Assembly: GCA_032718475.1 (NCBI GenBank) | Contig: JAUCBJ010003088.1 | Coordinates: 1 to 64,000, forward strand | DNA length: 64,000 nucleotides | Direction: 5' to 3' | From: Nemertoderma westbladi | Lineage: Eukaryota; Animalia; Xenacoelomorpha | Part shown: positions 8,625 to 55,000 of the stretch, piece after piece | Position numbering within the stretch: position 1 is the first letter of the stretch | Layout of the letters: each line of letters starts with the position of its first letter | The notes under the pieces: generated by a model | What the model was told of the DNA's origin: nothing | The model's database searches: none | Seen by the model: the letters and a program-made list of their open reading frames with translations, nothing else | Position numbers and translations under genes: made by a program

Positions 8625-9773
8625 AATTCCACGTAAATGTATGGTATGTTTATTTACTACATTTATTTTCTCAATACATTTTATTGATAAGATACAAACA
8701 TCTAAAAATTATATTAAGTAGAGAATTTTGATTCAGATAAAGTTTAATCTTACTTAATCAGTCTTAATTTTATATTATAACTCGAAGTATCCGTTGTAGT
8801 ATGTCTTACCTATATCCTAATTATAAATATATTACTTGTGCAATATGTAAAAATAATTACGCCGTGTATATTTGTTGTCAGTCGTGAATTTGAGAAAATT
8901 CACTGGTGGTGGGTGTAAGCGCGTATTATTTACGTTATACTGTTTCGGGATAACATTATTGATGGCAGTTTAATCTAATTAGTATATTTACGTAAGTTAT
9001 CAAAATAGTTAATGTTATTAACCAAGTTTACAGTCTAACTTACTTTGTGGCTCGCCCCATAGGCAGGATCGTTATCTGCTTGCATTATTATACTGTATGT
9101 AGCCCATTGTATTATTGCAAATAGAACATATCATGTTCATTTACTAGACGTAAGATGGCGTATTGCTAGCTGATATATATAGGCATGACACAGCAGTGTT
9201 AGAACCATTATTACTACTATTATTATCATTGTTATCTGATATCTGACTTCCGGTGGCAGTGTGACATTCAGTATTTTGATGGTACCGGTAGCGGTAATAT
9301 GAATCCGTCAATGTATATGGAGTAGCCGGGCCTATTTCGGGCTGTTGGCCGGTTCAGTCTGGGATGTGATAGGGCTAGTTTGCGCTAGGGTTTCACGGGA
9401 TTATTTATATTGTGGGGGGCTTATTTTATATGGTACGGTATCAAAATTAAAAATACTATAATGTTCAATGTATTGTGGTAATTATTGTGATACGTAACAA
9501 AGCCCCACAGTTTTATTTAGTGCTATTGCAAATGATATTGCTAATGTTATTGCTATTGCTATAAATTACTATAAATTGCTGTACATCGTTTTATATTCGA
9601 GTAATAATTTCGTAATTGCATTTCAGTATTTGATTGACATGACATATTAAACGTAAAATAAATAAGAAAGTTTTGTATGAAACTTGAGCATTTCAAAAGC
9701 ATCTAACTCTCAATTAAAAGAGGGGAAAAACAAGGGGTTTTTATTCGATGTCCATGTGACGCCTTAACGCGCT

Positions 9774-30700: not shown

Positions 30701-33700
30701 CCAGTACTCCTATATGGAGTCCATCATACAGCAGTTAGAATCAGTACTCCTATATGGAGTTCATCAATCAGCAGTTAGAACCAGTACTCCTATATGGAGT
30801 CTATCAATCAGAAGTTAGAACCAGTACTCCTTTATGGAGTCCATCATACAGTAATTAGAACCAGTACTCCTCAATCAGCAGTTAGAACCAGTACTCCTTT
30901 ATGGAGTCCATCAATCAGAAGTTAGAACCAGTACTCCTATATGGAGTCCATCAATCAGAAGTTAGAACCAGTACTCCTATATGGAGTCCATCAATCAGAA
31001 GTTAGAACCAGTACTCCTATATGGAGTCCATCATACAGCAGTTAGAACCAGTACTCCTATATGGAGTCCATCAATCAGAATCAGAAGTTAGAACCAGTAC
31101 TCCTATATGGAGTCCATCATACAGCAGTTAGAACAAGTACTCCTATATGGAGTCCATCATACAGCAGTTAGAACCAGTACTCCTATATGGAGTCCATCAT
31201 ACAGCAGTTAGAACCAGTACTCCTATATGGAGTCCCATCATACAGCAGTTAGAACCAGTACTCCTATATGGAGTCCATCAATCAGCAGATAGAACCAGGA
31301 ACCAGTACTCCTATATGGAGTCCATCATACAGCAGTTAGAACCAGTACTCCTATATGGAGTCCATCATATCAGAAGTTAGAACCAGTACTCCTATATGGA
31401 GTCCATCAATCAGCAGTTAGAACCAGTACTCCTATATGGAGTCCATCATACAGCAGTTAGAACCAGTACTCCTATATGGAGTCCATCATACAGCAGTTAG
31501 AACCAGTACTCCTATATGGAGTCCATCATACAGCAGTTAGACCCAGTACTCCTATATGGAGTCCATCAATCATAAGTTAGAACCAGTACTCCTATATGGA
31601 GTCCATCATACAGCAGTTAGAACCAGTACTCCTATATGGAGTCCATCATACAGCAGTTAGAACCAGTACTCCTATATGGAGTCCATCATACAGCAGTTAG
31701 AACCAGTACTCCTATATGGAGTCCATCAATCATAAGTTAGAACCAGTACTCCTATATGGAGTCCATCATACAGCTGTTAGAACCAGTACTCCTATATGGA
31801 GTCCATCATACAGTAATTAGAACCAGTACTCCTCAATCAGCAGTTAGAACCAGTACTCCTTTATGGAGTCCATCAATCAGAAGTTAGAACCAGTACTCCT
31901 ATATGGAGTCCATCATACAGCAGTTAGAACCAGTACTCCTATATGGAGTCCATCATACAGCAGTTAGAACCAGTACTCCTATATGGAGTTCATCAATCAG
32001 CAGTTAGAACCAGGAACCAGTATTCCTATATGGATTCCATCATACAGCAGTTAGAATCAGTACTCCTATATGGAGTCCATCATACAACTCCTATATGGAG
32101 TCCATCATACAGCAGTTAGAATCAGTACTCCTATATGGAGTCCATCATACAGCAGTTAGAACCAGTACTCCTATATGGAGTCCATCATGCAGCAGTTAGA
32201 ACCAGTACTCCTATATGGAGTCCATCATACAGCAGTTAGAACCAGTACTCCTATATGGAGTCCATCATACAGCAGTTAGAATCAGTACTCCTATATGGAG
32301 TTCATCAATCAGCAGTTAGAACCAGTACTCCTATATGGAGTCTATCAATCAGAAGTTAGAACCAGTACTCCTTTATGGAGTCCATCATACAGTAATTAGA
32401 ACCAGTACTCCTCAATCAGCAGTTAGAACCAGTACTCCTTTATGGAGTCCATCAATCAGAAGTTAGAACCAGTACTCCTATATGGAGTCCATCATACAGC
32501 AGTTAGAACCAGTACTCCTATATGGAGTCCATCATACAGCAGTTAGAATCAGTACTCCTATATGGAGTTCATCAATCAGCAGTTAGAACCAGTACTCCTA
32601 TATGGAGTCTATCAATCAGAAGTTAGAACCAGTACTCCTTTATGGAGTCCATCATACAGTAATTAGAACCAGTACTCCTCAATCAGCAGTTAGAACCAGT
32701 ACTCCTTTATGGAGTCCATCAATCAGAAGTTAGAACCAGTACTCCTATATGGAGTCCATCAATCAGAAGTTAGAACCAGTACTCCTATATGGAGTCCATC
32801 AATCAGAAGTTAGAACCAGTACTCCTATATGGAGTCCATCATACAGCAGTTAGAACCAGTACTCCTATATGGAGTCCATCAATCAGAATCAGAAGTTAGA
32901 ACCAGTACTCCTATATGGAGTCCATCATACAGCAGTTAGAACAAGTACTCCTATATGGAGTCCATCATACAGCAGTTAGAACCAGTACTCCTATATGGAG
33001 TCCATCATACAGCAGTTAGAACCAGTACTCCTATATGGAGTCCCATCATACAGCAGTTAGAACCAGTACTCCTATATGGAGCATCAATCAGCAGATAGAA
33101 CCAGGAACCAGTACTCCTATATGGATTCCATCATACAGCAGTTAGAACCAGTACTCCTATATGGAGTCCATCAATCAGAAGTTAGAACCAGTACTCCTAT
33201 ATGGATTCCATCAATCAGCAGTTAGAACCAGTACTCCTATATGGAGTCCATCATACAGCAGTTAGAACCAGTACTCCTATATGGAGTCCATCATACAGCA
33301 GTTAGAACCAGTACTCCTATATGGAGTCCATCATACAGCAGTTAGACCCAGTACTCCTATATGGAGTCCATCAATCATAAGTTAGAACCAGTACTCCTAT
33401 ATGGAGTCCATCATACAGCAGTTAGAACCAGTACTCCTATATGGAGTCCATCATACAGCAGTTAGAACCAGTACTCCTATATGGAGTCCATCATACAGCA
33501 GTTAGACCCAGTACTCCTATATGGAGTCCATCAATCATAAGTTAGAACCAGTACTCCTATATGGAGTCCATCATACAGCTGTTAGAACCAGTACTCCTAT
33601 ATGGAGTCCATCATACAGCAGTTAGAACCAGTACTCCTATATGGAGTCCATCATACAGCAGTTAGAACCAGTACTCCTATATGGAGTCCATCATACAGAA

Positions 33701-36700
33701 GTTAGAACTAGTACTCCTATATGGAGTCCATCATACAGCAGTTAGAACCAGTACTCCTATATGGAGTCTATCATACAGCAGTTAGAACCAGTACTCCTAT
33801 ATGGAGTCCATCAATCATAAGTTAGAACCAGTACTCCTATATGGAGTCCATCATACAGCAGTTAGAACCAGTACTCCTATATGGAGTCCATCATACAGCT
33901 GTTAGAACCAGTACTCCTATATGGAGTCCATCATACAGCTGTTAGAACCAGTACTCCTATATGGAGTCCATCATACAGCAGTTAGAACCAGTACTCCTAT
34001 ATGGAGCATCAATCAGCAGATAGAACCAGGAACCAGTATTCCTATATGGATTCCATCATACAGCAGTTAGAATCAGTACTCCTATATGGAGTCCATCATA
34101 CAACTCCTATATGGAGTCCATCATACAGCAGTTAGAATCAGTACTCCTATATGGAGTCCATCATACAGCAGTTAGAACCAGTACTCCTATATGGAGTCCA
34201 TCATGCAGCAGTTAGAACCAGTACTCCTATATGGAGTCCATCATACAGCAGTTAGAACCAGTACTCCTATATGGAGTCCATCATACAGCAGTTAGAATCA
34301 GTACTCCTATATGGAGTTCATCAATCAGCAGTTAGAACCAGTACTCCTATATGGAGTCTATCAATCAGAAGTTAGAACCAGTACTCCTTTATGGAGTCCA
34401 TCATACAGTAATTAGAACCAGTACTCCTCAATCAGCAGTTAGAACCAGTACTCCTTTATGGAGTCCATCAATCAGAAGTTAGAACCAGTACTCCTATATG
34501 GAGTCCATCATACAGCAGTTAGAACCAGTACTCCTATATGGAGTCCATCATACAGCAGTTAGAATCAGTACTCCTATATGGAGTTCATCAATCAGCAGTT
34601 AGAACCAGTACTCCTATATGGAGTCTATCAATCAGAAGTTAGAACCAGTACTCCTTTATGGAGTCCATCATACAGTAATTAGAACCAGTACTCCTCAATC
34701 AGCAGTTAGAACCAGTACTCCTTTATGGAGTCCATCAATCAGAAGTTAGAACCAGTACTCCTATATGGAGTCCATCAATCAGAAGTTAGAACCAGTACTC
34801 CTATATGGAGTCCATCAATCAGAAGTTAGAACCAGTACTCCTATATGGAGTCCATCATACAGCAGTTAGAACCAGTACTCCTATATGGAGTCCATCAATC
34901 AGAATCAGAAGTTAGAACCAGTACTCCTATATGGAGTCCATCATACAGCAGTTAGAACAAGTACTCCTATATGGAGTCCATCATACAGCAGTTAGAACCA
35001 GTACTCCTATATGGAGTCCATCATACAGCAGTTAGAACCAGTACTCCTATATGGAGTCCCATCATACAGCAGTTAGAACCAGTACTCCTATATGGAGCAT
35101 CAATCAGCAGATAGAACCAGGAACCAGTACTCCTATATGGATTCCATCATACAGCAGTTAGAACCAGTACTCCTATATGGAGTCCATCAATCAGAAGTTA
35201 GAACCAGTACTCCTATATGGATTCCATCAATCAGCAGTTAGAACCAGTACTCCTATATGGAGTCCATCATACAGCAGTTAGAACCAGTACTCCTATATGG
35301 AGTCCATCATACAGCAGTTAGAACCAGTACTCCTATATGGAGTCCATCATACAGCAGTTAGACCCAGTACTCCTATATGGAGTCCATCAATCATAAGTTA
35401 GAACCAGTACTCCTATATGGAGTCCATCATACAGCAGTTAGAACCAGTACTCCTATATGGAGTCCATCATACAGCAGTTAGAACCAGTACTCCTATATGG
35501 AGTCCATCATACAGCAGTTAGACCCAGTACTCCTATATGGAGTCCATCAATCATAAGTTAGAACCAGTACTCCTATATGGAGTCCATCATACAGCTGTTA
35601 GAACCAGTACTCCTATATGGAGTCCATCATACAGCAGTTAGAACCAGTACTCCTATATGGAGTCCATCATACAGCAGTTAGAACCAGTACTCCTATATGG
35701 AGTCCATCATACAGAAGTTAGAACTAGTACTCCTATATGGAGTCCATCATACAGCAGTTAGAACCAGTACTCCTATATGGAGTCTATCATACAGCAGTTA
35801 GAACCAGTACTCCTATATGGAGTCCATCAATCATAAGTTAGAACCAGTACTCCTATATGGAGTCCATCATACAGCAGTTAGAACCAGTACTCCTATATGG
35901 AGTCCATCATACAGCTGTTAGAACCAGTACTCCTATATGGAGTCCATCATACAGCTGTTAGAACCAGTACTCCTATATGGAGTCCATCATACAGCAGTTA
36001 GAACCAGTACTCCTATATGGAGCATCAATCAGTAGATAGAACCAGGAACCAGTATTCCTATATGGATTCCATCATACAGCAGTTAGAATCAGTACTCCTA
36101 TATGGAGTCCATCATACAACTCCTATATGGAGTCCATCATACAGCAGTTAGAATCAGTACTCCTATATGGAGTCCATCATACAGCAGTTAGAACCAGTAC
36201 TCCTATATGGAGTCCACCATGCAGCAGTTAGAACCAGTACTCCTATATGGAGTCCATCATACAGCAGTTAGAACCAGTACTCCTATATGGAGTCCATCAT
36301 ACAGCAGTTAGAATCAGTACTCCTATATGGAATTCATCAATCAGCAGTTAGAACCAGTACTCCTATATGGAGTCTATCAATCAGAAGTTAGAACCAGTAC
36401 TCCTTTATGGAGTCCATCATACAGTAATTAGAACCAGTACTCCTCAATCAGCAGTTAGAACCAGTACTCCTTTATGGAGTCCATCAATCAGAAGTTAGAA
36501 CCAGTACTCCTATATGGAGTCCATCATACAGCAGTTAGAACCAGTACTCCTATATGGAGTCCATCATACAGCAGTTAGAATCAGTACTCCTATATGGAGT
36601 TCATCAATCAGCAGTTAGAACCAGTACTCCTATATGGAGTCTATCAATCAGAAGTTAGAACCAGTACTCCTTTATGGAGTCCATCATACAGTAATTAGAA

Positions 36701-39700
36701 CCAGTACTCCTCAATCAGCAGTTAGAACCAGTACTCCTTTATGGAGTCCATCAATCAGAAGTTAGAACCAGTACTCCTATATGGAGTCCATCAATCAGAA
36801 GTTAGAACCAGTACTCCTATATGGAGTCCATCAATCAGAAGTTAGAACCAGTACTCCTATATGGAGTCCATCATACAGCAGTTAGAACCAGTACTCCTAT
36901 ATGGAGTCCATCAATCAGAATCAGAAGTTAGAACCAGTACTCCTCAATCAGCAGTTAGAACCAGTACTCCTTTATGGAGTCCATCAATCAGAAGTTAGAA
37001 CCAGTACTCCTATATGGAGTCCATCAATCAGAAGTTAGAACCAGTACTCCTATATGGAGTCCATCAATCAGAAGTTAGAACCAGTACTCCTATATGGAGT
37101 CCATCATACAGCAGTTAGAACCAGTACTCCTATATGGAGTCCATCAATCAGAATCAGAAGTTAGAACCAGTACTCCTATATGGAGTCCATCATACAGCAG
37201 TTAGAACAAGTACTCCTATATGGAGTCCATCATACAGCAGTTAGAACCAGTACTCCTATATGGAGTCCATCATACAGCAGTTAGAACCAGTACTCCTATA
37301 TGGAGTCCCATCATACAGCAGTTAGAACCAGTACTCCTATATGGAGCATCAATCAGCAGATAGAACCAGGAACCAGTACTCCTATATGGATTCCATCATA
37401 CAGCAGTTAGAACCAGTACTCCTATATGGAGTCCATCAATCAGAAGTTAGAACCAGTACTCCTATATGGATTCCATCAATCAGCAGTTAGAACCAGTACT
37501 CCTATATGGAGTCCATCATACAGCAGTTAGAACCAGTACTCCTATATGGAGTCCATCATACAGCAGTTAGAACCAGTACTCCTATATGGAGTCCATCATA
37601 CAGCAGTTAGACCCAGTACTCCTATATGGAGTCCATCAATCATAAGTTAGAACCAGTACTCCTATATGGAGTCCATCATACAGCAGTTAGAACCAGTACT
37701 CCTATATGGAGTCCATCATACAGCAGTTAGAACCAGTACTCCTATATGGAGTCAATCATACAGCAGTTAGACCCAGTACTCCTATATGGAGTCCATCAAT
37801 CATAAGTTAGAACCAGTACTCCTATATGGAGTCCATCATACAGCTGTTAGAACCAGTACTCCTATATGGAGTCCATCATACAGCAGTTAGAACCAGTACT
37901 CCTATATGGAGTCCATCATACAGCAGTTAGAACCAGTACTCCTATATGGAGTCCATCATACAGAAGTTAGAACTAGTACTCCTATATGGAGTCCATCATA
38001 CAGCAGTTAGAACCAGTACTCCTATATGGAGTCTATCATACAGCAGTTAGAACCAGTACTCCTATATGGAGTCCATCAATCATAAGTTAGAACCAGTACT
38101 CCTATATGGAGTCCATCATACAGCAGTTAGAACCAGTAATCCTATATGGAGTCCATCATACAGCTGTTAGAACCAGTACTCCTATATGGAGTCCATCATA
38201 CAGCTGTTAGAACCAGTACTCCTATATGGAGTCCATCATACAGCAGTTAGAACCAGTACTCCTATATGGAGCATCAATCAGCAGATAGAACCAGGAACCA
38301 GTATTCCTATATGGATTCCATCATACAGCAGTTAGAATCAGTACTCCTATATGGAGTCCATCATACAACTCCTATATGGAGTCCATCATACAGCAGTTAG
38401 AATCAGTACTCCTATATGGAGTCCATCATACAGCAGTTAGAACCAGTACTCCTATATGGAGTCCACCATGCAGCAGTTAGAACCAGTACTCCTATATGGA
38501 GTCCATCATACAGCAGTTAGAACCAGTACTCCTATATGGAGTCCATCATACAGAAGTTAGAACTAGTACTCCTATATGGAGTCCATCATACAGCAGTTAG
38601 AACCAGTACTCCTATATGGAGTCTATCATACAGCAGTTAGAACCAGTACTCCTATATGGAGTCCATCAATCATAAGTTAGAACCAGTACTCCTATATGGA
38701 GTCCATCATACAGCAGTTAGAACCAGTACTCCTATATGGAGTCCATCATACAGCTGTTAGAACCAGTACTCCTATATGGAGTCCATCATACAGCTGTTAG
38801 AACCAGTACTCCTATATGGAGTCCATCATACAGCAGTTAGAACCAGTACTCCTATATGGAGCATCAATCAGCAGATAGAACCAGGAACCAGTATTCCTAT
38901 ATGGATTCCATCATACAGCAGTTAGAATCAGTACTCCTATATGGAGTCCATCATACAACTCCTATATGGAGTCCATCATACAGCAGTTAGAATCAGTACT
39001 CCTATATGGAGTCCATCATACAGCAGTTAGAACCAGTACTCCTATATGGAGTCCACCATGCAGCAGTTAGAACCAGTACTCCTATATGGAGTCCATCATA
39101 CAGCAGTTAGAACCAGTACTCCTATATGGAGTCCATCATACAGCAGTTAGAATCAGTACTCCTATATGGAGTTCATCAATCAGCAGTTAGAACCAGTACT
39201 CCTATATGGAGTCTATCAATCAGAAGTTAGAACCAGTACTCCTTTATGGAGTCCATCATACAGTAATTAGAACCAGTACTCCTCAATCAGCAGTTAGAAC
39301 CAGTACTCCTTTATGGAGTCCATCAATCAGAAGTTAGAACCAGTACTCCTATATGGAGTCCATCATACAGCAGTTAGAACCAGTACTCCTATATGGAGTC
39401 CATCATACAGCAGTTAGAATCAGTACTCCTATATGGAGTTCATCAATCAGCAGTTAGAACCAGTACTCCTATATGGAGTCTATCAATCAGAAGTTAGAAC
39501 CAGTACTCCTTTATGGAGTCCATCATACAGTAATTAGAACCAGTACTCCTCAATCAGCAGTTAGAACCAGTACTCCTTTATGGAGTCCATCAATCAGAAG
39601 TTAGAACCAGTACTCCTATATGGAGTCCATCAATCAGAAGTTAGAACCAGTACTCCTATATGGAGTCCATCAATCAGAAGTTAGAACCAGTACTCCTATA

Positions 39701-42461
39701 TGGAGTCCATCATACAGCAGTTAGAACCAGTACTCCTATATGGAGTCCATCAATCAGAATCAGAAGTTAGAACCAGTACTCCTCAATCAGCAGTTAGAAC
39801 CAGTACTCCTTTATGGAGTCCATCAATCAGAAGTTAGAACCAGTACTCCTATATGGAGTCCATCAATCAGAAGTTAGAACCAGTACTCCTATATGGAGTC
39901 CATCAATCAGAAGTTAGAACCAGTACTCCTATATGGAGTCCATCATACAGCAGTTAGAACCAGTACTCCTATATGGAGTCCATCAATCAGAATCAGAAGT
40001 TAGAACCAGTACTCCTATATGGAGTCCATCATACAGCAGTTAGAACAAGTACTCCTATATGGAGTCCATCATACAGCAGTTAGAACCAGTACTCCTATAT
40101 GGAGTCCATCATACAGCAGTTAGAACCAGTACTCCTATATGGAGTCCCATCATACAGCAGTTAGAACCAGTACTCCTATATGGAGCATCAATCAGCAGAT
40201 AGAACCAGGAACCAGTACTCCTATATGGATTCCATCATACAGCAGTTAGAACCAGTACTCCTATATGGAGTCCATCAATCAGAAGTTAGAACCAGTACTC
40301 CTATATGGATTCCATCAATCAGCAGTTAGAACCAGTACTCCTATATGGAGTCCATCATACAGCAGTTAGAACCAGTACTCCTATATGGAGTCCATCATAC
40401 AGCAGTTAGAACCAGTACTCCTATATGGAGTCCATCATACAGCAGTTAGACCCAGTACTCCTATATGGAGTCCATCAATCATAAGTTAGAACCAGTACTC
40501 CTATATGGAGTCCATCATACAGCAGTTAGAACCAGTACTCCTATATGGAGTCCATCATACAGCAGTTAGAACCAGTACTCCTATATGGAGTCAATCATAC
40601 AGCAGTTAGACCCAGTACTCCTATATGGAGTCCATCAATCATAAGTTAGAACCAGTACTCCTATATGGAGTCCATCATACAGCTGTTAGAACCAGTACTC
40701 CTATATGGAGTCCATCATACAGCAGTTAGAACCAGTACTCCTATATGGAGTCCATCATACAGCAGTTAGAACCAGTACTCCTATATGGAGTCCATCATAC
40801 AGAAGTTAGAACTAGTACTCCTATATGGAGTCCATCATACAGCAGTTAGAACCAGTACTCCTATATGGAGTCTATCATACAGCAGTTAGAACCAGTACTC
40901 CTATATGGAGTCCATCAATCATAAGTTAGAACCAGTACTCCTATATGGAGTCCATCATACAGCAGTTAGAACCAGTACTCCTATATGGAGTCCATCATAC
41001 AGCTGTTAGAACCAGTACTCCTATATGGAGTCCATCATACAGCTGTTAGAACCAGTACTCCTATATGGAGTCCATCATACAGCAGTTAGAACCAGTACTC
41101 CTATATGGAGCATCAATCAGCAGATAGAACCAGGAACCAGTATTCCTATATGGATTCCATCATACAGCAGTTAGAATCAGTACTCCTATATGGAGTCCAT
41201 CATACAACTCCTATATGGAGTCCATCATACAGCAGTTAGAATCAGTACTCCTATATGGAGTCCATCATACAGCAGTTAGAACCAGTACTCCTATATGGAG
41301 TCCACCATGCAGCAGTTAGAACCAGTACTCCTATATGGAGTCCATCATACAGCAGTTAGAACCAGTACTCCTATATGGAGTCCATCATACAGCAGTTAGA
41401 ATCAGTACTCCTATATGGAGTTCATCAATCAGCAGTTAGAACCAGTACTCCTATATGGAGTCTATCAATCAGAAGTTAGAACCAGTACTCCTTTATGGAG
41501 TCCATCATACAGTAATTAGAACCAGTACTCCTCAATCAGCAGTTAGAACCAGTACTCCTTTATGGAGTCCATCAATCAGAAGTTAGAACCAGTACTCCTA
41601 TATGGAGTCCATCATACAGCAGTTAGAACCAGTACTCCTATATGGAGTCCATCATACAGCAGTTAGAATCAGTACTCCTATATGGAGTTCATCAATCAGC
41701 AGTTAGAACCAGTACTCCTATATGGAGTCTATCAATCAGAAGTTAGAACCAGTACTCCTTTATGGAGTCCATCATACAGTAATTAGAACCAGTACTCCTC
41801 AATCAGCAGTTAGAACCAGTACTCCTTTATGGAGTCCATCAATCAGAAGTTAGAACCAGTACTCCTATATGGAGTCCATCAATCAGAAGTTAGAACCAGT
41901 ACTCCTATATGGAGTCCATCAATCAGAAGTTAGAACCAGTACTCCTATATGGAGTCCATCATACAGCAGTTAGAACCAGTACTCCTATATGGAGTCCATC
42001 AATCAGAATCAGAAGTTAGAACCAGTACTCCTATATGGAGTCCATCATACAGCAGTTAGAACAAGTACTCCTATATGGAGTCCATCATACAGCAGTTAGA
42101 ACCAGTACTCCTATATGGAATCCATCATACAGCAGTTAGAACCAGTACTCCTATATGGAGTCCCATCATACAGCAGTTAGAACCAGTACTCCTATATGGA
42201 GCATCAATCAGCAGATAGAACCAGGAACCAGTACTCCTATATGGATTCCATCATACAGCAGTTAGAACCAGTACTCCTATATGGAGTCCATCAATCAGAA
42301 GTTAGAACCAGTACTCCTATATGGATTCCATCAATCAGCAGTTAGAACCAGTACTCCTATATGGAGTCCATCATACAGCAGTTAGAACCAGTACTCCTAT
42401 ATGGAGTCCATCATACAGCAGTTAGAACCAGTACTCCTATATGGAGTCCATCATACAGCAG
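9774..42461 (+). repeat. 40-bp satellite array, left arm, with higher-order repeat structure
   Basis: Head-to-tail copies of CAGCAGTTAGAACCAGTACTCCTATATGGAGTCCATCATA, all in one orientation, roughly 800 monomers. Recurrent variants include AATCAGAAG, AATCATAAG, GAATCAG, GAACTAG, GACCCAG, GAACAAG, GTAATTAG and shortened 27-bp units. Confidence 0.99.
42383..42461 (+). repeat. Inferred left copy of ~79-bp target-site duplication of the RTE insertion
   Basis: Identical to 44301-44379. Inferred from a 79-bp excess between two higher-order-repeat markers flanking the insertion. Confidence 0.6.
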
Positions 42462-44261
42462 AATCAGATGGGCGGAAAAGCCAACCAACCACCAAGGTTA
42501 AGGCTGAATCACCAGCCGATCGCCTTAATGGTTGGAAAGCCCACTTTGAAAAGCTCCTTAATAATGGCAGGGTATTGCCTGATAACTTTATAGAAGTAAA
42601 AGTGTCTGAGTCTGTACTCCCAGATATTCCCATTGAATAATGGCAGGGTATTGCCTGATAACTTTATAGAAGTAAAAGTGTCTGAGTCTGTACTCCCAGA
42701 TATTCCCATTGGCGATATCTCCTTTGCAGAAGTGAAGGCTGCTGCAAAGAGCATTAAGACCAATCGTGCCAGTGGAGTAGATGGTGTTCCCCCTGAGGTC
42801 TTTAAAATACCTGAGTGTTTAAAGCTCATCTATCCCATCATAGTAGACATGTACCGTACAACAAGAGTCCCACAAGAAATGAAAACAAATAAGTTGGTGC
42901 CAGTTCCCAAGAAGGGCAACCTAACACTCTATGGTTCTTTTCGGGGAATCTCATTGATCTCGATTGCTGCAAAACTATAAAATAGAATTCTATTAAATCG
43001 CATCAGGGATCCCATTGAGAGACTGCTACGTGGAAATCAGAATGGGTTCCGTAAAGGTCGTGGGACCATGGAGCCCATTTTGGCACTTAGAAGGATAATT
43101 GAAGAGTTATCAAAAAAGAAAGACAGGCATCTGGCTGTTATCTTTGTTGACTTCTTCAAGGCCTTTGATTCAGTCTCTCGCTCACGTATGTTCAGCATAC
43201 TTTCATTATATGGGATTCCTGATGAAATTATTGCAGCAATCAGATCAGTATACGATGGTTCGACAACATTTGTGTCTACTGTTGACGGTGACACAGAACC
43301 ATTTGAAGTGTTATGGGGCGTCCTCCAAGGAGACACACTTGCACCATTCTTCTTCATTATTGTGGTTGACTATGTTCTACGCATGTCCTTAGATCATCAT
43401 AATGATGATGGGGTGATGATAACTCCACCTACTGGCTCCAGAAGTCGAGGAAATCCTGCCAAGTACCTAACTGATCTAGACTTTGCTGATGACTTAGGAG
43501 TACTCTCAGAATCATTAGAGGGAGCCCAGCGGCTCCTCAGCTCATTAGAACATGCTGCTTCTAGTGTTGGTCTTTTTATTAACTCCAGAAAGACCAAAAT
43601 TCTGACAGTTAACTTTGAAAGTCCTCAGCAAGTCTCTGATCGGATGAGCATAAGCTCAAAGGATGGTATGCTTGAGCATGTGGATGACTTCTGTTACCTG
43701 GGATCATGGATCCGGAAGTCAGGTGAGGACCTTCGAATACGTAAGGGAAAGGCATGGGCAGCCTTGAATAGGCTTTCCAGGATTTGGAAGTCACCTAGAA
43801 TTAATCGGAAACTTAAAGTCCGATTATTTAGAGCAGCAGTAGTTCCAGTACTCCTCTATGGGAGTCCATGCTGGGCTCTAACTGCTGAGGACACCAAATC
43901 TCTGGATGGCACATTCACAAGAATGCTACGCCGGGTACATTGTGTCAAGTACAATGCACACATCTCCAACCAGACACTATATAACATTGGAGGTGTCTCA
44001 TTGGTTCCCCCAAGCTTGACACTAGAACAAAATCGCCTCCGCTTTGCAGGACATTGCTTTCGCCGTGAGGACCAGCCAGTGCATAATCTTGTACTTTGGC
44101 AGCCTCATGGAGTGAATAAGCATGGTGGACAGCCCATGACTTTCTTGAGACGCATCTTAAAGGACACTGGCCTTAAAGATGCGGATGATCTAGCAAATGT
44201 CATGGGTGATAGGGAGTTGTGGCGGTGCAATTTTGTTGACAAGCCGGCACAGCATTCTTAA
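42462..44261 (+). pseudogene. RTE-type reverse transcriptase ORF, disrupted
   Basis: Motifs WKAHFEKLL, RASGVDGVPPEVFK, VPVPKKGNL, FRGISLISIAAKL*NRILLNR, QNGFRKGR, FVDFFKAFDSV, GVLQGDTLAPFFF, LDFADD, FCYLGS, VLLYGS and RLRFAGHC. Disrupted by a 76-bp tandem duplication (frameshift) and an in-frame TAA at 42978-42980, where Tyr is expected (K-x-Y-N-R). Confidence 0.93.
42560..42711 (+). repeat. Perfect 76-bp tandem duplication inside the RTE ORF
   Basis: 42560-42635 equals 42636-42711 (AATAATGGCAGGG...GATATTCCCATTG). 76 is not a multiple of 3, so the frame shifts. Confidence 0.97.
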
Positions 44262-44291
44262 AAATGCAGCTGCAATGCAGCATGCCGATCC

Positions 44292-44303
44292 TAGTAGTAG
44301 TAG
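44292..44303 (+). repeat. (TAG)n 3' tail of the RTE element
   Basis: TAGTAGTAGTAG starts 30 nt after the ORF stop. The last TAG is shared with the satellite TAGAACC. Confidence 0.85.
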
Positions 44304-44379
44304 AACCAGTACTCCTATATGGAGTCCATCATACAGCAGTTAGAACCAGTACTCCTATATGGAGTCCATCATACAGCAG
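44301..44379 (+). repeat. Inferred right copy of ~79-bp target-site duplication
   Basis: Identical to 42383-42461 and followed by the T-TAGACCC variant expected after the left junction. Confidence 0.6.
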
Positions 44380-47300
44380 TTAGACCCAGTACTCCTATAT
44401 GGAGTCCATCAATCATAAGTTAGAACCAGTACTCCTATATGGAGTCCATCATACAGCAGTTAGAACCAGTACTCCTATATGGAGTCCATCATACAGCAGT
44501 TAGAACCAGTACTCCTATATGGAGTCCATCATACAGCAGTTAGAACCAGTACTCCTATATGGAGTCCATCAATCATAAGTTAGAACCAGTACTCCTATAT
44601 GGAGTCTATCATACAGCAGTTAGAACCAGTACTTCTATATGGAGTCCCATCATACAGCAGTTAGAACCAGTACTCCTATATGGAGCATCAATCAGCAGAT
44701 AGAACCAGGAACCAGTACTCCTATATGGATTCCATCATACAGCAGTTAGAACCAGTACTCCTATATGGAGTCCATCAATCAGAAGTTAGAACCAGTACTC
44801 CTATATGGATTCCATCAATCAGCAGTTAGAACCAGTACTCCTATATGGAGTCCATCATACAGCAGTTAGAACCAGTACTCCTATATGGAGTCCATCATAC
44901 AGCAGTTAGAACCAGTACTCCTATATGGAGTCAATCATACAGCAGTTAGACCCAGTACTCCTATATGGAGTCCATCAATCATAAGTTAGAACCAGTACTC
45001 CTATATGGAGTCCATCATACAGCAGTTAGAACCAGTACTCCTATATGGAGTCCATCATACAGCAGTTAGAACCAGTACTCCTATATGGAGTCCATCATAC
45101 AGCAGTTAGAACCAGTACTCCTATATGGAGTCCATCATACAGCAGTTAGAATCAGTACTCCTATATGGAGTCCATCATACAGCAGTTAGAACCAGTACTC
45201 CTATATGGAGTCCATCATACAGCAGTTAGAACCAGTACTCCTATATGGAGTCCATCATACAGCAGTTAGAACCAGTACTCTTATATGGAGTCAATCATAC
45301 AGCCTATATGGAGTCCATCAATCAGAAGTTAGAACCAGTACTCCTATATGGAGTCCATCAATCAGAATCAGAAGTTAGAACCAGTACTCCTATATGGAGT
45401 CCATCATACAGCAGTTAGAACCAGTACTCCTATATGGAGTCCATCAATCATAAGTTAGAACCAGTACTCCTATATGGAGTCCATCATACAGCAGTTAGAA
45501 CCAGTACTCCTATATGGAGTCCATCATACAGAAGTTAGAACCAGTACTCCTATATGGAGTCCATCATACAAAAGTTAGAACCAGTACTCCTATATGGAGT
45601 CCATCAATCAGAAGTTAGAACCAGTACTCCTATATGGAGTCCATCAATCAGAAGTTAGAACCAGTACTCCTATATGGAGTCCATCATACAGCAGTTAGAA
45701 TCAGTACTCCTATATGAAGTCCATCATACAAAAGTTAGAACCAGTACTCCTATATGGAGACCATCATACAGCAGTTAGAACCAGTACTCCTATATGGAGT
45801 CCATCAATCAGAAGTTAGAACCAGTACTCCTTTATGGAGTCCTTCAATCATAAGTTAGAACCAGTACTCCTATATGGAGTCCATCATACAGCAGTTAGAA
45901 CCAGTACTCCTTCCTATATGGATTCCATCATACAGCAGTTAGAACCAGTACTCCTATATGGAGTCCATCAATCAGAAGTTAGAACCAGTACTCCTTTATG
46001 GAGTCCTTCAATCAGAAGTTAGAACCAGTACTCCTATATGGATTCCATCAATCAGAAGTTAGAACCAGTACTCCTATATGGAGTCCATCAATCAGAAGTT
46101 AGAACTAGTACTCCTTTATGGAGTCCATCAATCAGAAGTTAGAACCAGTACTCCTATATGGAGTCCATCATACAGCAGTTAGAATCAGTACTCCTATATG
46201 GAGTCCATCATACAAAAGTTAGAACCATACAGCAGTTAGAACCAGTACTCCTATATGGAGTCCATCATACAGCAGTTAGAACCAGTACTCCTATATGGAG
46301 CATCAATCAGCAGATAGAACCAGGAACCAGTACTCCCATATGGATTCCATCATACAGCAGTTAGAACCAGTACTCCTATATGGAGTCCATCATACAGCAG
46401 TTAGAACCAGTACTCCTATATGGAGTCCATCATACAGCAGTTAGAACCAGTACTCCTATATGGAGTCCATCAATCAGAAGTTAGAACCAGTACTCCTATA
46501 TGGAGTCCATCAATCAGAAGTTAGAACCAGTACTCCTATATGGAGTCCATCATACAGCAGTTAGAATCAGTACTCCTATATGGAGTCCATCATACAAAAG
46601 TTAGAACCAGTACTCCTATATGGAGTCCATCATACAGCAGTTAGAACTCCTATATGGAGTCCATCATACAGCAGTTAGAATCAGTACTCCTATATGGAGT
46701 CCATCATACAGCAGTTAGAACCAGTACTCCTATATGGAGTCCATCATGCAGCAGTTAGAACCAGTACTCCTATATGGAGTTCATCAATCAGCAGTTAGAA
46801 CCAGTACTCCTATATGGAGCATCAATCAGAAGTTAGAACCAGTACTCCTATATGGAGTCCATCAATCAGAAGTTAGAACCAGTACTCCTATATGGAGTCC
46901 ATCAATCAGAAGTTAGAACCAGTACTCCTATATGGAGTCCATCATACAGCAGTTAGAATCAGTACTCCTATATGGAGTCCATCATACAAAAGTTAGAACC
47001 AGTACTCCTATATGGAGTCCATCATACAGCAGTTAGAACTCCTATATGGAGTCCATCATACAGCAGTTAGAATCAGTACTCCTATATGGAGTCCATCATA
47101 CAGCAGTTAGAACCAGTACTCCTATATGGAGTCCATCAATCAGAAGTTAGAACCAGTACTCCTTTATGGAGTCCTTCAATCATAAGTTAGAACCAGTACT
47201 CCTATATGGAGTCCATCATACAGCAGTTAGAACCAGTACTCCTTCCTATATGGATTCCATCATACAGCAGTTAGAACCAGTACTCCTATATGGAGTCCAT

Positions 47301-50300
47301 CAATCAGAAGTTAGAACCAGTACTCCTTTATGGAGTCCTTCAATCAGAAGTTAGAACCAGTACTCCTATATGGATTCCATCAATCAGAAGTTAGAACCAG
47401 TACTCCTATATGGAGTCCATCAATCAGAAGTTAGAACTAGTACTCCTTTATGGAGTCCATCAATCAGAAGTTAGAACCAGTACTCCTATATGGAGTCCAT
47501 CATACAGCAGTTAGAATCAGTACTCCTATATGGAGTCCATCATACAAAAGTTAGAACCATACAGCAGTTAGAACCAGTACTCCTATATGGAGTCCATCAT
47601 ACAGCAGTTAGAACCAGTACTCCTATATGGAGCATCAATCAGCAGATAGAACCAGGAACCAGTACTCCCATATGGATTCCATCATACAGCAGTTAGAACC
47701 AGTACTCCTATATGGAGTCCATCATACAGCAGTTAGAACCAGTACTCCTATATGGAGTCCATCATACAGCAGTTAGAACCAGTACTCCTATATGGAGTCC
47801 ATCAATCAGAAGTTAGAACCAGTACTCCTATATGGAGTCCATCAATCAGAAGTTAGAACCAGTACTCCTATATGGAGTCCATCATACAGCAGTTAGAATC
47901 AGTACTCCTATATGGAGTCCATCATACAAAAGTTAGAACCAGTACTCCTATATGGAGTCCATCATACAGCAGTTAGAACTCCTATATGGAGTCCATCATA
48001 CAGCAGTTAGAATCAGTACTCCTATATGGAGTCCATCATACAGCAGTTAGAACCAGTACTCCTATATGGAGTCCATCATGCAGCAGTTAGAACCAGTACT
48101 CCTATATGGAGTTCATCAATCAGCAGTTAGAACCAGTACTCCTATATGGAGCATCAATCAGAAGTTAGAACCAGTACTCCTATATGGAGTCAGTCCATCA
48201 ATCATAAGTTAGAACCAGTACTCCTATATGGAGTCCATCATACAGCAGTTAGAACCAGTACTCCTTCCTATATGGAGTCCATCATTCAGCTGTTAGAACC
48301 AGTACTTCTATATGGAGACCATCATACAGCAGTTAGAACCAGTACTCCTATATGGAGCATCAATCAGAAGTTAGAACCAGTACTCCAGTAGCAGTTAGAA
48401 CCAGTACTCCTATATGGAGTCTATCAATCAGAAGTTAGAACCAGTACTCCTTTATGGAGTCCATCATACAGCAGTTAGAACCAGTACTCCTATATGGAGC
48501 ATCAATCAGCAGATAGAACCAGGAACCAGTACTCCTATATGGATTCCATCATACAGCAGTTAGAACCAGTACTCCTATATGGAGTCCATCATACAGCAGT
48601 TAGAACCAGTACTCCTATATGGAGTCCATCATACAGCAGTTAGAACCAGTACTCCTATATGGAGTCCATCAATCAGAAGTTAGAACCAGTACTCCTATAT
48701 GGAGTCCATCATACAGCAGTTAGAATCAGTACTCCTATATGAAGTCCATCATACAAAAGTTAGAACCAGTACTCCTATATGGAGACCATCATACAGCAGT
48801 TAGAACCAGTACTCCTATATGGAGTCCATCAATCAGAAGTTAGAACCAGTACTCCTTTATGGAGTCCTTCAATCATAAGTTAGAACCAGTACTCCTATAT
48901 GGAGTCCATCATGCAGCAGTTAGAACCAGTACTCCTTCCTATATGGATTCCATCATACAGCAGTTAGAACCAGTACTCCTATATGGAGTCCATCATACAG
49001 CAGTTAGAACCAGTACTCTTATATGGATACCATCATACAGCAGTTAGAACCAGTACTCCTATATGGAGCATCAATCAGAAGTTAGAACCAGTACTCCTTT
49101 ATGGAGTCAGTCCATCAATCATAAGTTAGAACCAGTACTCCTATATGGAGTCCATCATACAGCAGTTAGAACCAGTACTCCTTCCTATATGGATTCCATC
49201 ATACAGCAGTTAGAACCAGTACTCCTATATGGAGTCCATCATACAGCTGTTAGAACCAGTACTCCTATATGGAGTCCATCAATCAGAAGTTAGAACCAGT
49301 ACTCCTATATGGAGTCAGTCCATCAATCATAAGTTAGAATCAGTACTCCTATATGGAGTCCATCATACAGCAGTTAGAACCAGTACTCCTTCCTATATGG
49401 AGTCCATCATACAGCAGATAGAACCAGTACTCCTATATGGAGTCCATCATACAGCAGTCAGAACCAGTACTTCTATATGGAGACCATCATACAGCAGTTA
49501 GAACCAGTACTCCTATATAGGACCAGTACTCCTATATGGAGTCCATCAATCAGAAGTTAGAACCAGTACTCCTTTATGGAGTCCTTCAATCAGAAGTTAG
49601 AACCAGTACTCCTATATGGATTCCATCAATCAGAAGTTAGAACCAGTACTCCTATATGGAGTCCATCAATCAGAAGTTAGAACTAGTACTCCTTTATGGA
49701 GTCCATCAATCAGAAGTTAGAACCAGTACTCCTATATGGAGTCCATCATACAGCAGTTAGAATCAGTACTCCTATATGGAGTCCATCATACAAAAGTTAG
49801 AACCATACAGCAGTTAGAACCAGTACTCCTATATGGAGTCCATCATACAGCAGTTAGAACCAGTACTCCTATATGGAGCATCAATCAGCATATAGAACCA
49901 GGAACCAGTACTCCCATATGGATTCCATCATACAGCAGTTAGAACCAGTACTCCTATATGGAGTCCATCATACAGCAGTTAGAACCAGTACTCCTATATG
50001 GAGTCCATCATACAGCAGTTAGAACCAGTACTCCTATATGGAGTCCATCAATCAGAAGTTAGAACCAGTACTCCTATATGGAGTCCATCAATCAGAAGTT
50101 AGAACCAGTACTCCTATATGGAGTCCATCATACAGCAGTTAGAATCAGTACTCCTATATGGAGTCCATCATACAAAAGTTAGAACCAGTACTCCTATATG
50201 GAGTCCATCATACAGCAGTTAGAACTCCTATATGGAGTCCATCATACAGCAGTTAGAATCAGTACTCCTATATGGAGTCCATCATACAGCAGTTAGAACC

Positions 50301-52079
50301 AGTACTCCTATATGGAGTCCATCATGCAGCAGTTAGAACCAGTACTCCTATATGGAGTCCATCATACAGCAGTTAGAACCAGTACTCCTATATGGAGTCC
50401 ATCATACAGCAGTTAGAATCAGTACTCATATATGGAGTTCATCAATCAGCAGTTAGAACCAGTACTCCTATATGGAGTCTATCAATCAGAAGTTAGAACC
50501 AGTACTCCTTTATGGAGTCCATCATACAGTAATTAGAACCAGTACTCCTCAATCAGCAGTTAGAACCAGTACTCCTTTATGGAGTCCATCAATCAGAAGT
50601 TAGAACCAGTACTCCTATATGGAGTCCATCATACAGCAGTTAGAACCAGTACTCCTATATGGAGTCCATCATACAGCAGTTAGAATCAGTACTCCTATAT
50701 GGAGTTCATCAATCAGCAGTTAGAACCAGTACTCCTATATGGAGTCTATCAATCAGAAGTTGGAACCAGAACTCCTTTATGGAGTCCATCATACAGTAAT
50801 TAGAACCAGTACTCCTCAATCAGCAGTTAGAACCAGTACTCCTTTATGGAGTCCATCAATCAGAAGTTAGAACCAGTACTCCTATATGGAGTCCATCAAT
50901 CAGAAGTTAGAACCAGTACTCCTATATGGAGTCCATCAATCAGAATCAGAAGTTAGAACCAGTACTCCTATATGGAGTCCATCATACAGCAGTTAGAACA
51001 AGTACTCCTATATGGAGTCCATCATACAGCAGTTAGAACCAGTACTCCTATATGGAGTCCATCATACAGCAGTTAGAACCAGTACTCCTATATGGAGTCC
51101 ATCATACAGCAGTTAGAACCAGTACTCCTATATGGAGCATCAATCTGCAGATAGAACCAGGAACCAGTACTCCTATATGGATTCCATCATACAGCAGTTA
51201 GAACCAGTACTCCTATATGGAGTCCATCAATCAGAAGTTAGAACCAGTACTCCTATATGGATTCCATCAATCAGCAGTTAGAACCAGTACTCATATATGG
51301 AGTCCATCATACAGCAGTTAGAACCAGTACTCCTATATGGAGTCCATCATACAGCAGTTAGAACCAGTACTCCTATATGGAGTCCATCATACAGCAGTTA
51401 GACCCAGTACTCCTATATGGAGTCCATCAATCATAAGTTAGAACCAGTACTCCTATATGGAGTCCATCATACAGCAGTTAGAACCAGTACTCCTATATGG
51501 AGTCCATCATACAGCAGTTAGAACCAGTACTCTTATATGGAGTCCATCATACAGCAGTTAGAACCAGTACTCCTATATGGAGTCCATCATACAGCAGTTA
51601 GAACCAGTACTCCTATATGGAGTCCATCATACAGCAGTTAGAACCAGTACTCCTATACGGAGTCCATCATACAGCAGTTAGAATCAGTACTCCTATATGG
51701 AGTCCATCATACAGCAGTTAGAACCAGTACTCCTATATGGAGTCCCTCATACAGCAGTTAGAACCAGTACTCCCATATGGAGTCCATCATACAGCAGTTA
51801 GAACCAGTACTCCTATATGGAGTCCATCATACAGCCTATATGGAGTCCATCAATCAGAAGTTAGAACCAGTACTCCTATATGGAGTCCATCAATCAGAAT
51901 CAGAAGTTAGAACCAGTACTCCTATATGGAGTCCATCATACTGCAGTTAGAACCAGTACTCCTATATGGAGTCCATCAATCATAAGTTAGAACCAGTACT
52001 CCTATATGGAGTCCATCATACAGCAGTTAGAACCAGTACTCCTATATGGAGTCCTTCATACAGAAGATAGAACCAGTAC

Positions 52080-55000
52080 TATAAGGAGTCCTTCATACAG
52101 AAGATAGAACCAGTACTATATGGAGTCCATCATACAGCAGTTAGAACCAGTACCATATGGAGTCCATCATACAGCAGTTAGAACCAGTACTATATGGAGT
52201 CCATCATACAGCAGTTAGAACCAGTACTATATGGAGTCCATCAATCAGCAGTTAGAACCAGTACTATATGGAGTCCATCATACAGCAGTTAGAACCAGTA
52301 CTATATGGAGTCCATCATACAGCAGTTAGATCCAGTACTATATGGAGTCCTTCATACAGAAGATAGAACCAGTACCATATGGAGTCCATCATACAGCAGT
52401 TAGAACCAGTACTATATGGAGTCCATCACACAGCAGTTAGAACCAGTACTATATGGAGTCCATCATACAGCAGTTAGAACCAGTACTATATGGAGTCCTT
52501 CATATAGAAGATAGAACCAGTACTATATGGAGTCCATCATACAGCAGTTAGAACCAGTACTATATGGAGTCCTTCATACAGAAGATAGAACTAGTACTAT
52601 ATGGAGTCCTTCATACAGAAGATAGAACCAGTACCATATGGAGTCCATCATACAGCAGTTAGAACCAGTACTATATGGAGTCCATCACACAGCAGTTAGA
52701 ACCAGTACTATATGGAGTCCATCATACAGCAGTTAGAACCAGTACTATATGGAGTCCTTCATATAGAAGATAGAACCAGTACTATATGGAGTCCATCATA
52801 CAGCAGTTAGAACCAGTACTATATGGAGTCCATCATACAGCAGTTAGAACCAGTACTATATGGAGTCCATCATACAGCAGTTAGATCCAGTACTATATGG
52901 AGTCCTTCATACAGAAGATAGAACCAGTACCATATGGAGTCCATCATACAGCAGTTAGAACCAGTACTATATGGAGTCCATCACACAGCAGTTAGAACCA
53001 GTACTATATGGAGTCCATCATACAGCAGTTAGAACCAGTACTCCTATATGGAGTCCATCATACAGCAGTTAGAACCAGTACTATATGGAGTCCATCATAC
53101 AGCAGTTAGAACCAATACTCATATATGGAGTCCATCATACAACAGTTAGAACCAGTACTATATGGAGTCCATCATACAGCAGTTAGAACCAGTACCATAT
53201 GGAGTCCATCATACAGCAGTTAGAACCAGTACTATATGGAGTCCATCATACAGCAGTTAGAACCAGTACTCCTATATGGAGTCCATCATACAGCAGTTAG
53301 AACCAGTACTCCTATATGGAGTCCATCATACAGCAGTTAGAACCAGTACTCCTATATGGAGTCCATCATACAGCAGTTAGAATCAGTACTCCTATATGGA
53401 GTCCATCATACAGCAGTTAGAACCAGTACTCCTATATGGAGTCCATCATACAGCAGTTAGAACCAGTACTCCTATATGGAGTCCATCATACAGCAGTTAG
53501 AACCAGTACTCCTATATGGAGTCCATCATACAGCCTGGAGTCCATCAATCAGAAGTTAGAACCAGTACTCCTATATGGAGTCCATCAATCAGAATCAGAA
53601 GTTAGAACCAGTACTCCTATATGGAGTCCATCATACAGCAGTTAGAACCAGTACTCCTATATGGAGTCCATCAATCATAAGTTAGAACCAGTACTCCTAT
53701 ATGGAGTCCATCATACAGCAGTTAGAACCAGTACTCCTATATGGAGTCCTTCATACAGAAGATAGAACCAGTACTATAAGGAGTCCTTCATACAGAAGAT
53801 AGAACCAGTACTATATGGAGTCCATCATACAGCAGTTAGAACCAGTACCATATGGATTCCATCATACAGCAGTTAGAACCAGTACTATATGGAGTCCATC
53901 ATACAGCAGTTAGAACCAGTACTATATGGAGTCCATCAATCAGCAGTTAGAACCAGTACTATATGGAGTCCATCATACAGCAGTTAGAACCAGTACTCCT
54001 ATATGGAGTCCATCATACAGCAGTTAGAACCACTACTATATGGAGTCCATCATACAGCAGTTAGAACCAGTACTCCTATATGGAGTCCATCATACAGCAG
54101 TTAGAACCAGTACTATATGGAGTCCATCATACAGCAGTTAGAACCAGAACCATATGGAGTCCATCATACAGCAGTTAGAACCAGTACTATATAGAGTCCA
54201 TCATACAGCAGTTAGAACCAGTACTATATGGAGTCCATCATACAGCAGTTAGAACCAGTACTATATGGAGTCCATCATACAGCAGTAGAACCAGTACTAT
54301 ATGGAGTCCATCATACAGAAGATAGAACCAGTACTATATGGAGTCCTTCATACAGAAAATAGAACCAGTACTATATGGAGTCCTTCATACAGAAGTTAGA
54401 ACCAGTACTCCAATATGGAGTCCATCATACAGCAGTTAGAACCAGTACTATATGGAGTCCATCAATCAGCAGTTAGAATCAGTACTCCTATATGGAGTCC
54501 ATCATACAGCAGTTAGAACCAGTTCTATATGGAGTCCTCCATACAGAAGATAGAACCAGTACCATATGGAGTCCATCATACAGCAGTTAGAACCAGTACG
54601 ATAGAACCAGTACTATATGGAGTCCATCATACAGCAGTTAGAACCAGTACTATATGGAGTCCATCATACAGCAGTTAGAACCAGTACTATATGGAGTCCA
54701 TCATACAGCAGTTAGAACCAGTACTATATAGAGTCCTTCATATAGAAGATAGAACCAGTACTATATGGAGTCCGTCATACAGCAGTTAGAACCAGTACTA
54801 TATGGAGTCCATCATACAGCAGTTAGAACCAGTACTATATGGAGTCCTTCATACAGAAGATAGAACTAGTACTATATGGAGTCCATCATACAGCAGTAGA
54901 ACCAGTACTATATGGAGTCCTTCATATAGAAGATAGAACCAGTACTATATGGAGTCCATCATACAGCAGTTAGAACCAGTACTATATGGAGTCCATCATA

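What the first reader, a model, noticed from the sequence alone, without database searches (positions are those of the whole stretch)
43834..43869. The 40-bp satellite monomer is homologous to a coding segment of the RTE LINE inserted in it
Seen: the LINE reads CAGCAGT-AGTTCCAGTACTCCTCTATGGGAGTCCAT and the satellite reads CAGCAGTTAGAACCAGTACTCCTATAT-GGAGTCCAT. That is 32/37 identical columns (3 mismatches, 2 one-base gaps), same strand, covering 36 of the 40 monomer bases. The LINE segment is in frame and encodes AAVVPVLLYGSP; the satellite translates as LEPVLLYG, and its common GAATCAG variant as LESVLLYG. Known: (V)xxxLLYGxExW is a conserved motif downstream of the RT core in RTE-clade ORFs, so this segment is native to the LINE and not a captured satellite copy. 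One core difference is synonymous (CTC/CTA), and the match extends through the atypical Ser-Pro codons of this copy. Inference: a >52 kb satellite was amplified from ~40 bp of RT-coding sequence of this or a sister RTE lineage, and the lineage later re-inserted into its offspring. Satellite transcripts could also yield small RNAs against the LINE.
Basis: partly seen in the sequence, partly recalled or inferred. Interest (0 to 1): 0.85.

Follow-up and report, generated by a model that had tools for sequence, protein, structure and literature searches.

The report
Satellite born from LINE coding DNA
A 40-base repeat that runs for more than 52 kb matches a protein-coding piece of the jumping gene now sitting inside it, so it likely grew from an older copy of that same jumping-gene family, a neat new case of a route to satellite DNA that is already known.

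Summary
The match is real: 32 of 37 columns; 0 of 3,000 shuffled monomers reach it. It is not local gene conversion, because other copies of the family carry the same segment. The direction is LINE to satellite. The monomer translates to EPVLLYG, the best hit to a profile of 120 other relatives (0 of 600 shuffles). It keeps the ancestral Glu (110 of 120 relatives) where this LINE has Val, and it shares a Pro found in 0 of 120. The source was therefore likely an older stage of this family. This copy arrived late: it interrupts one higher-order repeat and has 79 extra bases beside it. The family is abundant and shows 37-68-bp tandem units at five places, so co-location needs no targeting. I found no birthplace array. 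Small-RNA control is untested. Satellites from transposon coding sequence are published (Chenopodium CficCl-61-40; LINE ORF2 cases). This scan noted RTE-derived satellites in two other genomes before.

The parts
43834..43869 (+). LINE coding segment (codons for A-A-V-V-P-V-L-L-Y-G-S-P) homologous to the monomer; the match extends to 43833 for a minority monomer variant
42462..44300 (+). 5'-truncated RTE-like non-LTR retrotransposon; dead copy of a young, abundant family; ends uncertain by a few bases because of microhomology
42981..44261 (+). Open 426-codon part of the LINE ORF (RVT_1 6.6e-22; DUF6451). The stop just upstream (42978-42980) is private to this copy
44292..44303 (+). (TAG)4 tail; the last TAG is shared with the satellite (3-base microhomology)
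9773..42461 (+). Satellite, left arm: 40-bp monomers arranged in kilobase-scale higher-order repeats
44301..64000 (+). Satellite, right arm; runs off the window
42383..42461 (+). Left copy of the 79 bases that are extra at this higher-order repeat (target-site-duplication-like)
44301..44379 (+). Right copy of the same 79 bases
42560..42711 (+). Exact 76-bp tandem duplication inside the LINE, which shifts the frame

Best explanation
The 40-bp monomer matches 36-37 bases of coding sequence behind the reverse-transcriptase core of this LINE family and was likely born as a tandem duplication inside an older, dead copy of that family, then likely amplified into a major satellite, into which a young copy of the family later inserted. 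Shown: the homology, its presence across the family, and insertion after the higher-order repeats had formed. Inferred: the source copy still had Glu where the family now has Val, and already had the family's Pro. Inferred: the seed was the 37-bp unit 43833-43869, whose ends share a GC microhomology; a duplicated CAT, one inserted base and one lost base made it 40 bp. Inferred from general knowledge: amplification by unequal exchange or rolling-circle-type turnover. Inferred: the LINE landed here because its family is very abundant and its TAG tail can pair with a TAG present in most monomers, not because of the old homology. The satellite no longer codes.
For: Statistics. Family-wide segment: of 90 variant sites at 3% or more, 40 were shown, and only one lies in the segment (43859 T>C, synonymous, away from the satellite; 41% of depth in X1, 35% in X3). 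Two contigs of 855 and 870 bases (X4, X7) span it, and all 6 and 7 of their differences lie outside it. Direction: monomer translation EPVLLYG scores 25.9 bits on a profile of 120 relatives, this LINE excluded; 0 of 600 shuffles reach that (max 21.3). Glu is in 110 of 120 relatives and in 6 of the 7 nearest (clade support 1.0); Pro is in 0 of 120. The satellite states are near-fixed: AA in 1,150 of 1,177 counted sites, the LINE's TT in none. Nineteen monomers with G at the junction align to a tandem of the 37-bp LINE unit with one 3-base gap at the junction. Six of the 12 joint rows shown (314 in all) are 37-68-bp tandem-like units from five places in this LINE. One, in X3 at depth 722, has a 48-bp period, starts at about 43833 and carries the Glu codon. 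Late insertion: 11 of 11 other higher-order copies have 123 bases between two markers, against 202 once the LINE is removed; the 1,161 bases left of the LINE match other copies at 99.5-99.8%.
Against: No birthplace was seen: the array's left edge adjoins non-LINE DNA (no blastn hit; best tblastn E 0.12) and the right edge is outside the window. Laying runs on the monomer at 88% showed no LINE-like loose end in the 12 of 27 rows displayed and no LINE-type one-base indel at 1% or more. The Glu-plus-Pro intermediate therefore rests on one contig joint, whose full sequence I could not see and which differs from both sequences at two further bases, and on a weak loose-end consensus (agreement 0.42). 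Fifty variant rows were hidden. X4 and X7 carry other organism labels and low depth. No relative above 58% identity turned up among the listed protein hits. The G-junction variant could be a reversion. Summed contig depth is not a copy number.
Confidence: 0.72

Rival explanations
1. Same ancestry, but the link is still functional: the family targets its daughter satellite, or satellite transcripts yield small RNAs that silence the LINE.
For: The insertion lies at a TAG that matches the tail. Predicted antisense 26-mers from the monomer pair at up to 23 of 26 positions with LINE RNA, about -38 against -48 kcal/mol for a perfect duplex. The satellite is abundant in runs X1 and X3.
Against: One insertion in 52 kb of array. 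No LINE-tail loose ends among the rows shown. Tail-target microhomology is described as general for RTE-clade LINEs (PMC6007223, passages). Exact matches are only 11 and 9 bases, and the family's common 43859 variant adds a difference. The family has expanded recently regardless.
Confidence: 0.1
2. The array is a 'mirage'-type repeat: it grew at a splice junction of a host gene that had exonised an old fragment of this LINE.
For: Unchecked notes of this scan describe several giant satellites with 36-67-bp units at exon-intron borders in this genome. The segment starts right after a T-rich stretch ending in AG and contains tandem AG triplets (sequence).
Against: No host exon was identified beside the array; the left flank holds a Bel/Pao-type ORF and unassigned DNA. 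The LINE also gives tandem units from four other places, so a splice site need not be invoked. The monomer has no polypyrimidine tract.
Confidence: 0.08
3. The flow ran the other way: an old satellite donated sequence to a LINE master copy, and the family inherited it.
For: The Pro codon is unusual (0 of 120 relatives) and lies inside the match.
Against: The monomer itself encodes a motif conserved in distant RTs, which a non-LINE satellite would not. The LINE keeps the relatives' frame, while the monomer has two frame-breaking indels. The LINE lacks the monomer's Glu. The five nearest relatives with Gln at that site are one base from Pro if the codon was CAA or CAG (inferred).
Confidence: 0.05
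4. Local gene conversion from the surrounding satellite into this one copy.
For: The copy is embedded in about 1,310 monomers on the same strand.
Against: The majority of family depth in X1 and X3 and two spanning contigs have the same segment. This copy's private differences among the rows shown (42980, 43352, 43817) lie outside it.
Confidence: 0.02
5. Chance similarity.
For: The match is short, was found after the fact, and the scan covers many windows. Re-codings reach the score in 3 of 3,000 when the protein is held fixed.
Against: P is about 1e-6 per LINE-monomer pair, and the profile test that leaves this LINE out points to the same codons.
Confidence: 0.01

Closest known systems
CficCl-61-40 satellite of Chenopodium (PMC7320549; read abstract, introduction and first results, parts 1-2 of 5)
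   Same: A major satellite with a ~40-bp monomer derived from a ~40-bp piece of transposon coding sequence; 82-95% identity to the parent piece (86% here).
   Different: The parent there is a CACTA DNA-transposon tnp2 domain in plants, and arrays are still attached to the parent fragment. Here the parent is a non-LTR RT region in an animal, no attached birthplace was found, and the neighbouring element is a later insertion.
LINE ORF2-related tandem repeats: PROsat (Phodopus, L1), Pvc 20 (seal, L1), HinfI (chicken, CR1), as listed in review PMC9659126 (passages and Table 1; primary papers not read)
   Same: Tandem repeats related to the ORF2 of non-LTR retrotransposons.
   Different: L1 and CR1 clades; in PROsat only a small region of the repeat matches. 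The review's table lists no RTE case and the word does not occur in its main text. Here essentially the whole monomer is LINE-derived.
SINE-derived satellites (sSats) of squamates (PMC10702118; abstract and outline only)
   Same: Tandem repeats arise repeatedly from internal parts of abundant retroposons.
   Different: Non-coding SINE sources, and per the abstract not amplified to the level of typical satellites.
Amphioxus 'mirage' minisatellites (PMC3087553; passages)
   Same: Short units copied from functional sequence into tandem arrays.
   Different: Mirages span exon-intron borders of host genes and have few copies; no host gene is shown here.

Membership tests
TE-derived satellite DNA | Long head-to-tail array of a homogenised monomer | tested here: met
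   About 1,310 monomers over 52 kb with higher-order repeats; abundant in X1 and X3
TE-derived satellite DNA | Monomer significantly similar to a defined part of a TE | tested here: met
TE-derived satellite DNA | The segment is native to the TE, not captured or converted | tested here: met
   Motif conserved in 120 relatives; family-wide; monomer hits the non-self profile
TE-derived satellite DNA | Transitional array still attached to the parent element | tested here: inconclusive
   None in the window or in the rows shown; one 48-bp tandem-like joint of the same segment in X3
RTE-clade non-LTR retrotransposon | One ORF of about 1,000-1,100 aa with AP endonuclease and RT (feature recalled) | tested here: inconclusive
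   This copy is 5'-truncated and has only RT. Three of 4 relatives scanned have 1,049-1,072-aa ORFs with Exo_endo_phos plus RVT_1; the fourth (915 aa) showed no endonuclease hit
RTE-clade non-LTR retrotransposon | Short 3' end with a microsatellite-like tail | tested here: met
   (TAG)4 about 30 bases after the stop; relatives end in short tri- to pentanucleotide repeats; feature from PMC6007223 passages
RTE-clade non-LTR retrotransposon | RT groups with named RTE elements in a tree | not testable with these tools
   No hit carried a clade label; the tree has unnamed relatives only. The RTE label is recalled from motifs
RTE-clade non-LTR retrotransposon | Target-site duplication | tested here: inconclusive
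   76-79 extra bases, longer than the usual 20 or fewer (PMC6007223 passage); inside a tandem array this could also be a short or absent duplication plus a local gain of monomers
Mirage (splice-junction) minisatellite | Unit spans a used exon-intron border of a host gene | not testable with these tools
   No genome held; no host exon identified in the window; no RNA run laid on the monomer

The most novel reading that the evidence does not exclude
This LINE family is the engine behind this genome's giant short-unit satellites. Its nicking and copying machinery routinely leaves 40-80-bp tandem duplications (the 76-79 extra bases at this insertion, the 76-bp duplication inside the copy, and 37-68-bp tandem units at five places in the family), in its own copies and in host genes alike. 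One such seed became a major satellite that preserves an extinct amino-acid state of the LINE and may now feed small RNAs back against it.
Probability: 0.1. Interest if true: 0.7.

Novelty: new member of a known kind. Interest (0 to 1): 0.35.

Why it matters
How satellite monomers originate is usually unknown. Here nearly every base can be traced to a LINE coding segment, and the birth can be ordered on the LINE's own history: after the Pro change and before the Glu-to-Val change. That makes it a clean, datable test case, and it adds an RTE-like source to a published list of L1, CR1, LTR and DNA-transposon cases. It does not change the concept. It would matter much more if the LINE machinery proved to be the general seed-maker for this genome's many giant short-unit arrays, or if the satellite regulates its parent.

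Tried and rejected
No whole genome is held, so no family catalogue or subfamily tree could be built. A degenerate pattern covering both forms found 0 matches in metagenome contigs. Protein searches found no member of this family: best 58% among the 120 listed of 1,628 hits; 2 short hits at 45-46%. Among the 80 loci, none aligned to the LINE at the DNA level over more than 475 bases, and the longer alignments were 64-68% identical. Run X5 gave only 5 satellite contigs, too few to use. No LINE sequence at the array's left flank. A target-site-duplication origin at the exact point where this LINE inserted does not fit, because the homology begins 6-7 bases upstream of that point. The LES variant was rejected as evidence. 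P0029 was dropped from the tree because it covers 46% of the query and misaligns at the motif; it is still counted among the 120. Sequence look-ups in earlier findings returned nothing. Eight literature searches listed no title or abstract opening that reports an RTE-ORF-derived satellite or a LINE re-inserted in its own daughter satellite; I read only six papers in part, and most subscription journals are not in the library.

Full report
Anatomy. The window holds a 40-bp satellite from 9773 to the right end, about 1,310 monomers. One non-satellite insert longer than 12 bases interrupts it, at 42462-44300. The insert is a 5'-truncated non-LTR retrotransposon with an open 426-codon RVT_1 frame, an exact internal 76-bp duplication and a (TAG)4 tail whose last TAG is shared with the satellite. 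Left of the array lie a Bel/Pao-type ORF and unassigned DNA, with no LINE similarity.

The observation. No shuffled monomer reached it in 3,000 and 8,000 trials; extrapolation gives about 1e-6 to 4e-6 per pair. Holding the protein fixed and re-drawing codons reached it in 3 of 3,000 and 1 of 3,000, so the match is at DNA level and not only through the peptide. Of 80 related loci, 52 covered the motif, and the best scored 30. The match is therefore specific to this family.

Not local conversion. Seven public runs hold half or more of the LINE's words. In X1 and X3, 96,350 and 25,405 contigs were laid, mostly 95% or more alike, which indicates a young and abundant family; the tool warns that summed depth is not a copy number. 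Of 90 variant sites at 3% or more, 40 were displayed. Only 43859 T>C falls in the segment, and it moves away from the satellite. Two long contigs from X4 and X7 span the segment, and all their differences lie outside it. The hidden 50 rows and the different organism labels of X4 and X7 limit this, but the majority state clearly equals this copy.

Direction. In 120 protein relatives the motif is conserved (L 117, L 116, Y 119, G 116, W 118). The monomer's translation EPVLLYG is the best hit to a profile built without this LINE, at the same codons; 0 of 600 shuffles match it. At the codon where the LINE has Val, relatives have Glu in 110 of 120 and in 6 of the 7 nearest, and the satellite has Glu. 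At the codon where the LINE has Pro, no relative does, and the satellite has the same bases. The simplest order is Pro change, then satellite birth, then Glu-to-Val (inference). The array is near-fixed for its own states: AA in 1,150 of 1,177 sites, two G's in 1,272 of 1,276, and the LINE's letters at these sites in none.

How the unit may have formed. LINE positions 43833 and 43870 both begin GC, a microhomology that would give a 37-bp tandem unit. Nineteen monomers have G at the junction and align to such a tandem with one 3-base gap there, a duplicated CAT. All 40 bases can thus be derived from the LINE, although that variant might be a reversion. One search lists 314 joints with intervening letters and shows 12. 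Six of these are tandem-like units of 37, 37, 41, 47, 48 and 68 bp from five places in the LINE; for the 37-bp ones the strand cannot be confirmed from the table. The 48-bp unit (X3, depth 722) starts at about 43833 and carries the Glu codon without the satellite's inserted base, which is the predicted intermediate, but it is a single contig seen only through its joint. Against this, laying runs on the monomer at 88% showed only satellite-type loose ends in the 12 of 27 rows displayed and no LINE-type indel at 1% or more. No birthplace is established.

The insertion is late. Two markers lie 123 bases apart in 11 of 11 other higher-order copies. At the LINE they are 202 apart once the LINE is removed, 79 more, and these 79 bases stand on both sides of it. 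The 1,161 bases to its left match other copies at 99.5-99.8%. The copy differs from spanning contigs by under 1%, against 14% of columns between segment and monomer. Birth and insertion are thus separate events. An abundant family is both the likeliest source of a satellite and the likeliest later intruder, and tail-target microhomology is described as general in RTE-clade LINEs (PMC6007223, passages), so no targeting is needed. With 36 of 40 bases homologous, landing inside the homologous part is uninformative.

Small RNAs. Predicted duplexes reach 23 of 26 pairs with a mismatch and a bulge. I have no small-RNA data, so this stays a possibility.

What is known. Satellites from transposon coding sequence are published. 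CficCl-61-40 is a ~40-bp major satellite 82-95% like a tnp2 fragment (PMC7320549, parts 1-2 of 5). The review PMC9659126 lists ORF2-related repeats from L1 and CR1 and no RTE case (passages and Table 1). PMC12628747 (passages) treats TE-derived satellites and nested insertion as common. PMC10702118 (abstract and outline) and PMC3087553 (passages) describe SINE-derived and splice-junction repeats. I read no supplements. Unchecked notes of this scan report RTE-derived satellites in two other genomes and many giant splice-junction satellites in this one; I used them as leads only. The RTE label rests on the tail, on relatives' single endonuclease-RT ORFs (3 of 4 scanned) and on recalled motifs, not on a tree with named elements.

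Verdict. The feature is real, the direction is well supported and the seeding mechanism is inferred. It is a new member of a known kind; interest 0.35.

Noticed in passing
window 3-6956 (+): An uninterrupted ORF of at least 2,317 codons, open at the 5' end, with DUF1759, Peptidase_A17, Integrase_H2C2 and DUF5641 hits: a young-looking Bel/Pao-type LTR retrotransposon beside the array.
   Followed up: partly
window 9184-9216: A degenerate monomer-like stretch about 560 bases left of the array edge (score 28; 18 of 8,000 shuffles reach 28 on a 1.8-kb target), possibly an old stray monomer.
   Followed up: partly
window 8163-8610: A separate 31-bp tandem repeat, 14.5 copies, 96% matches.
   Followed up: no
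window 42560-42711: Exact 76-bp duplication near the LINE's 5' end, close in length to the 76-79 extra bases at the insertion; template jump or assembly artefact.
   Followed up: no
window 43982-44016 (runs X1, X3): A joint with a 37-bp period from another part of the LINE in both runs, depth 5,204 in X3: possibly a second LINE-derived minisatellite.
   Followed up: no
window about 43941 (runs X1, X3): Contigs join a TAG-repeat tail to this internal position, which suggests nested insertion of the family into itself.
   Followed up: no
window 43833 (run X1): One of the best-supported loose ends (4 contigs, agreement 0.91) lies where the satellite homology and the 48-bp unit begin; perhaps a recurrent breakpoint.
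   Followed up: no
window about 47558-64000: A 37-bp monomer variant lacking three bases is common in the right arm (34 copies of its commonest form); it is also seen at about 1-2% of depth in X1 and X3.
   Followed up: no
monomer, e.g. window 44334-44373: The monomer contains overlapping short dyads (a 6-base palindrome and two 5-bp stems), read from the sequence; folding significance not tested.
   Followed up: no
L017 after 3230; L012 after 3242: Related RT elements in other samples also end directly against short tandem repeats.
   Followed up: no
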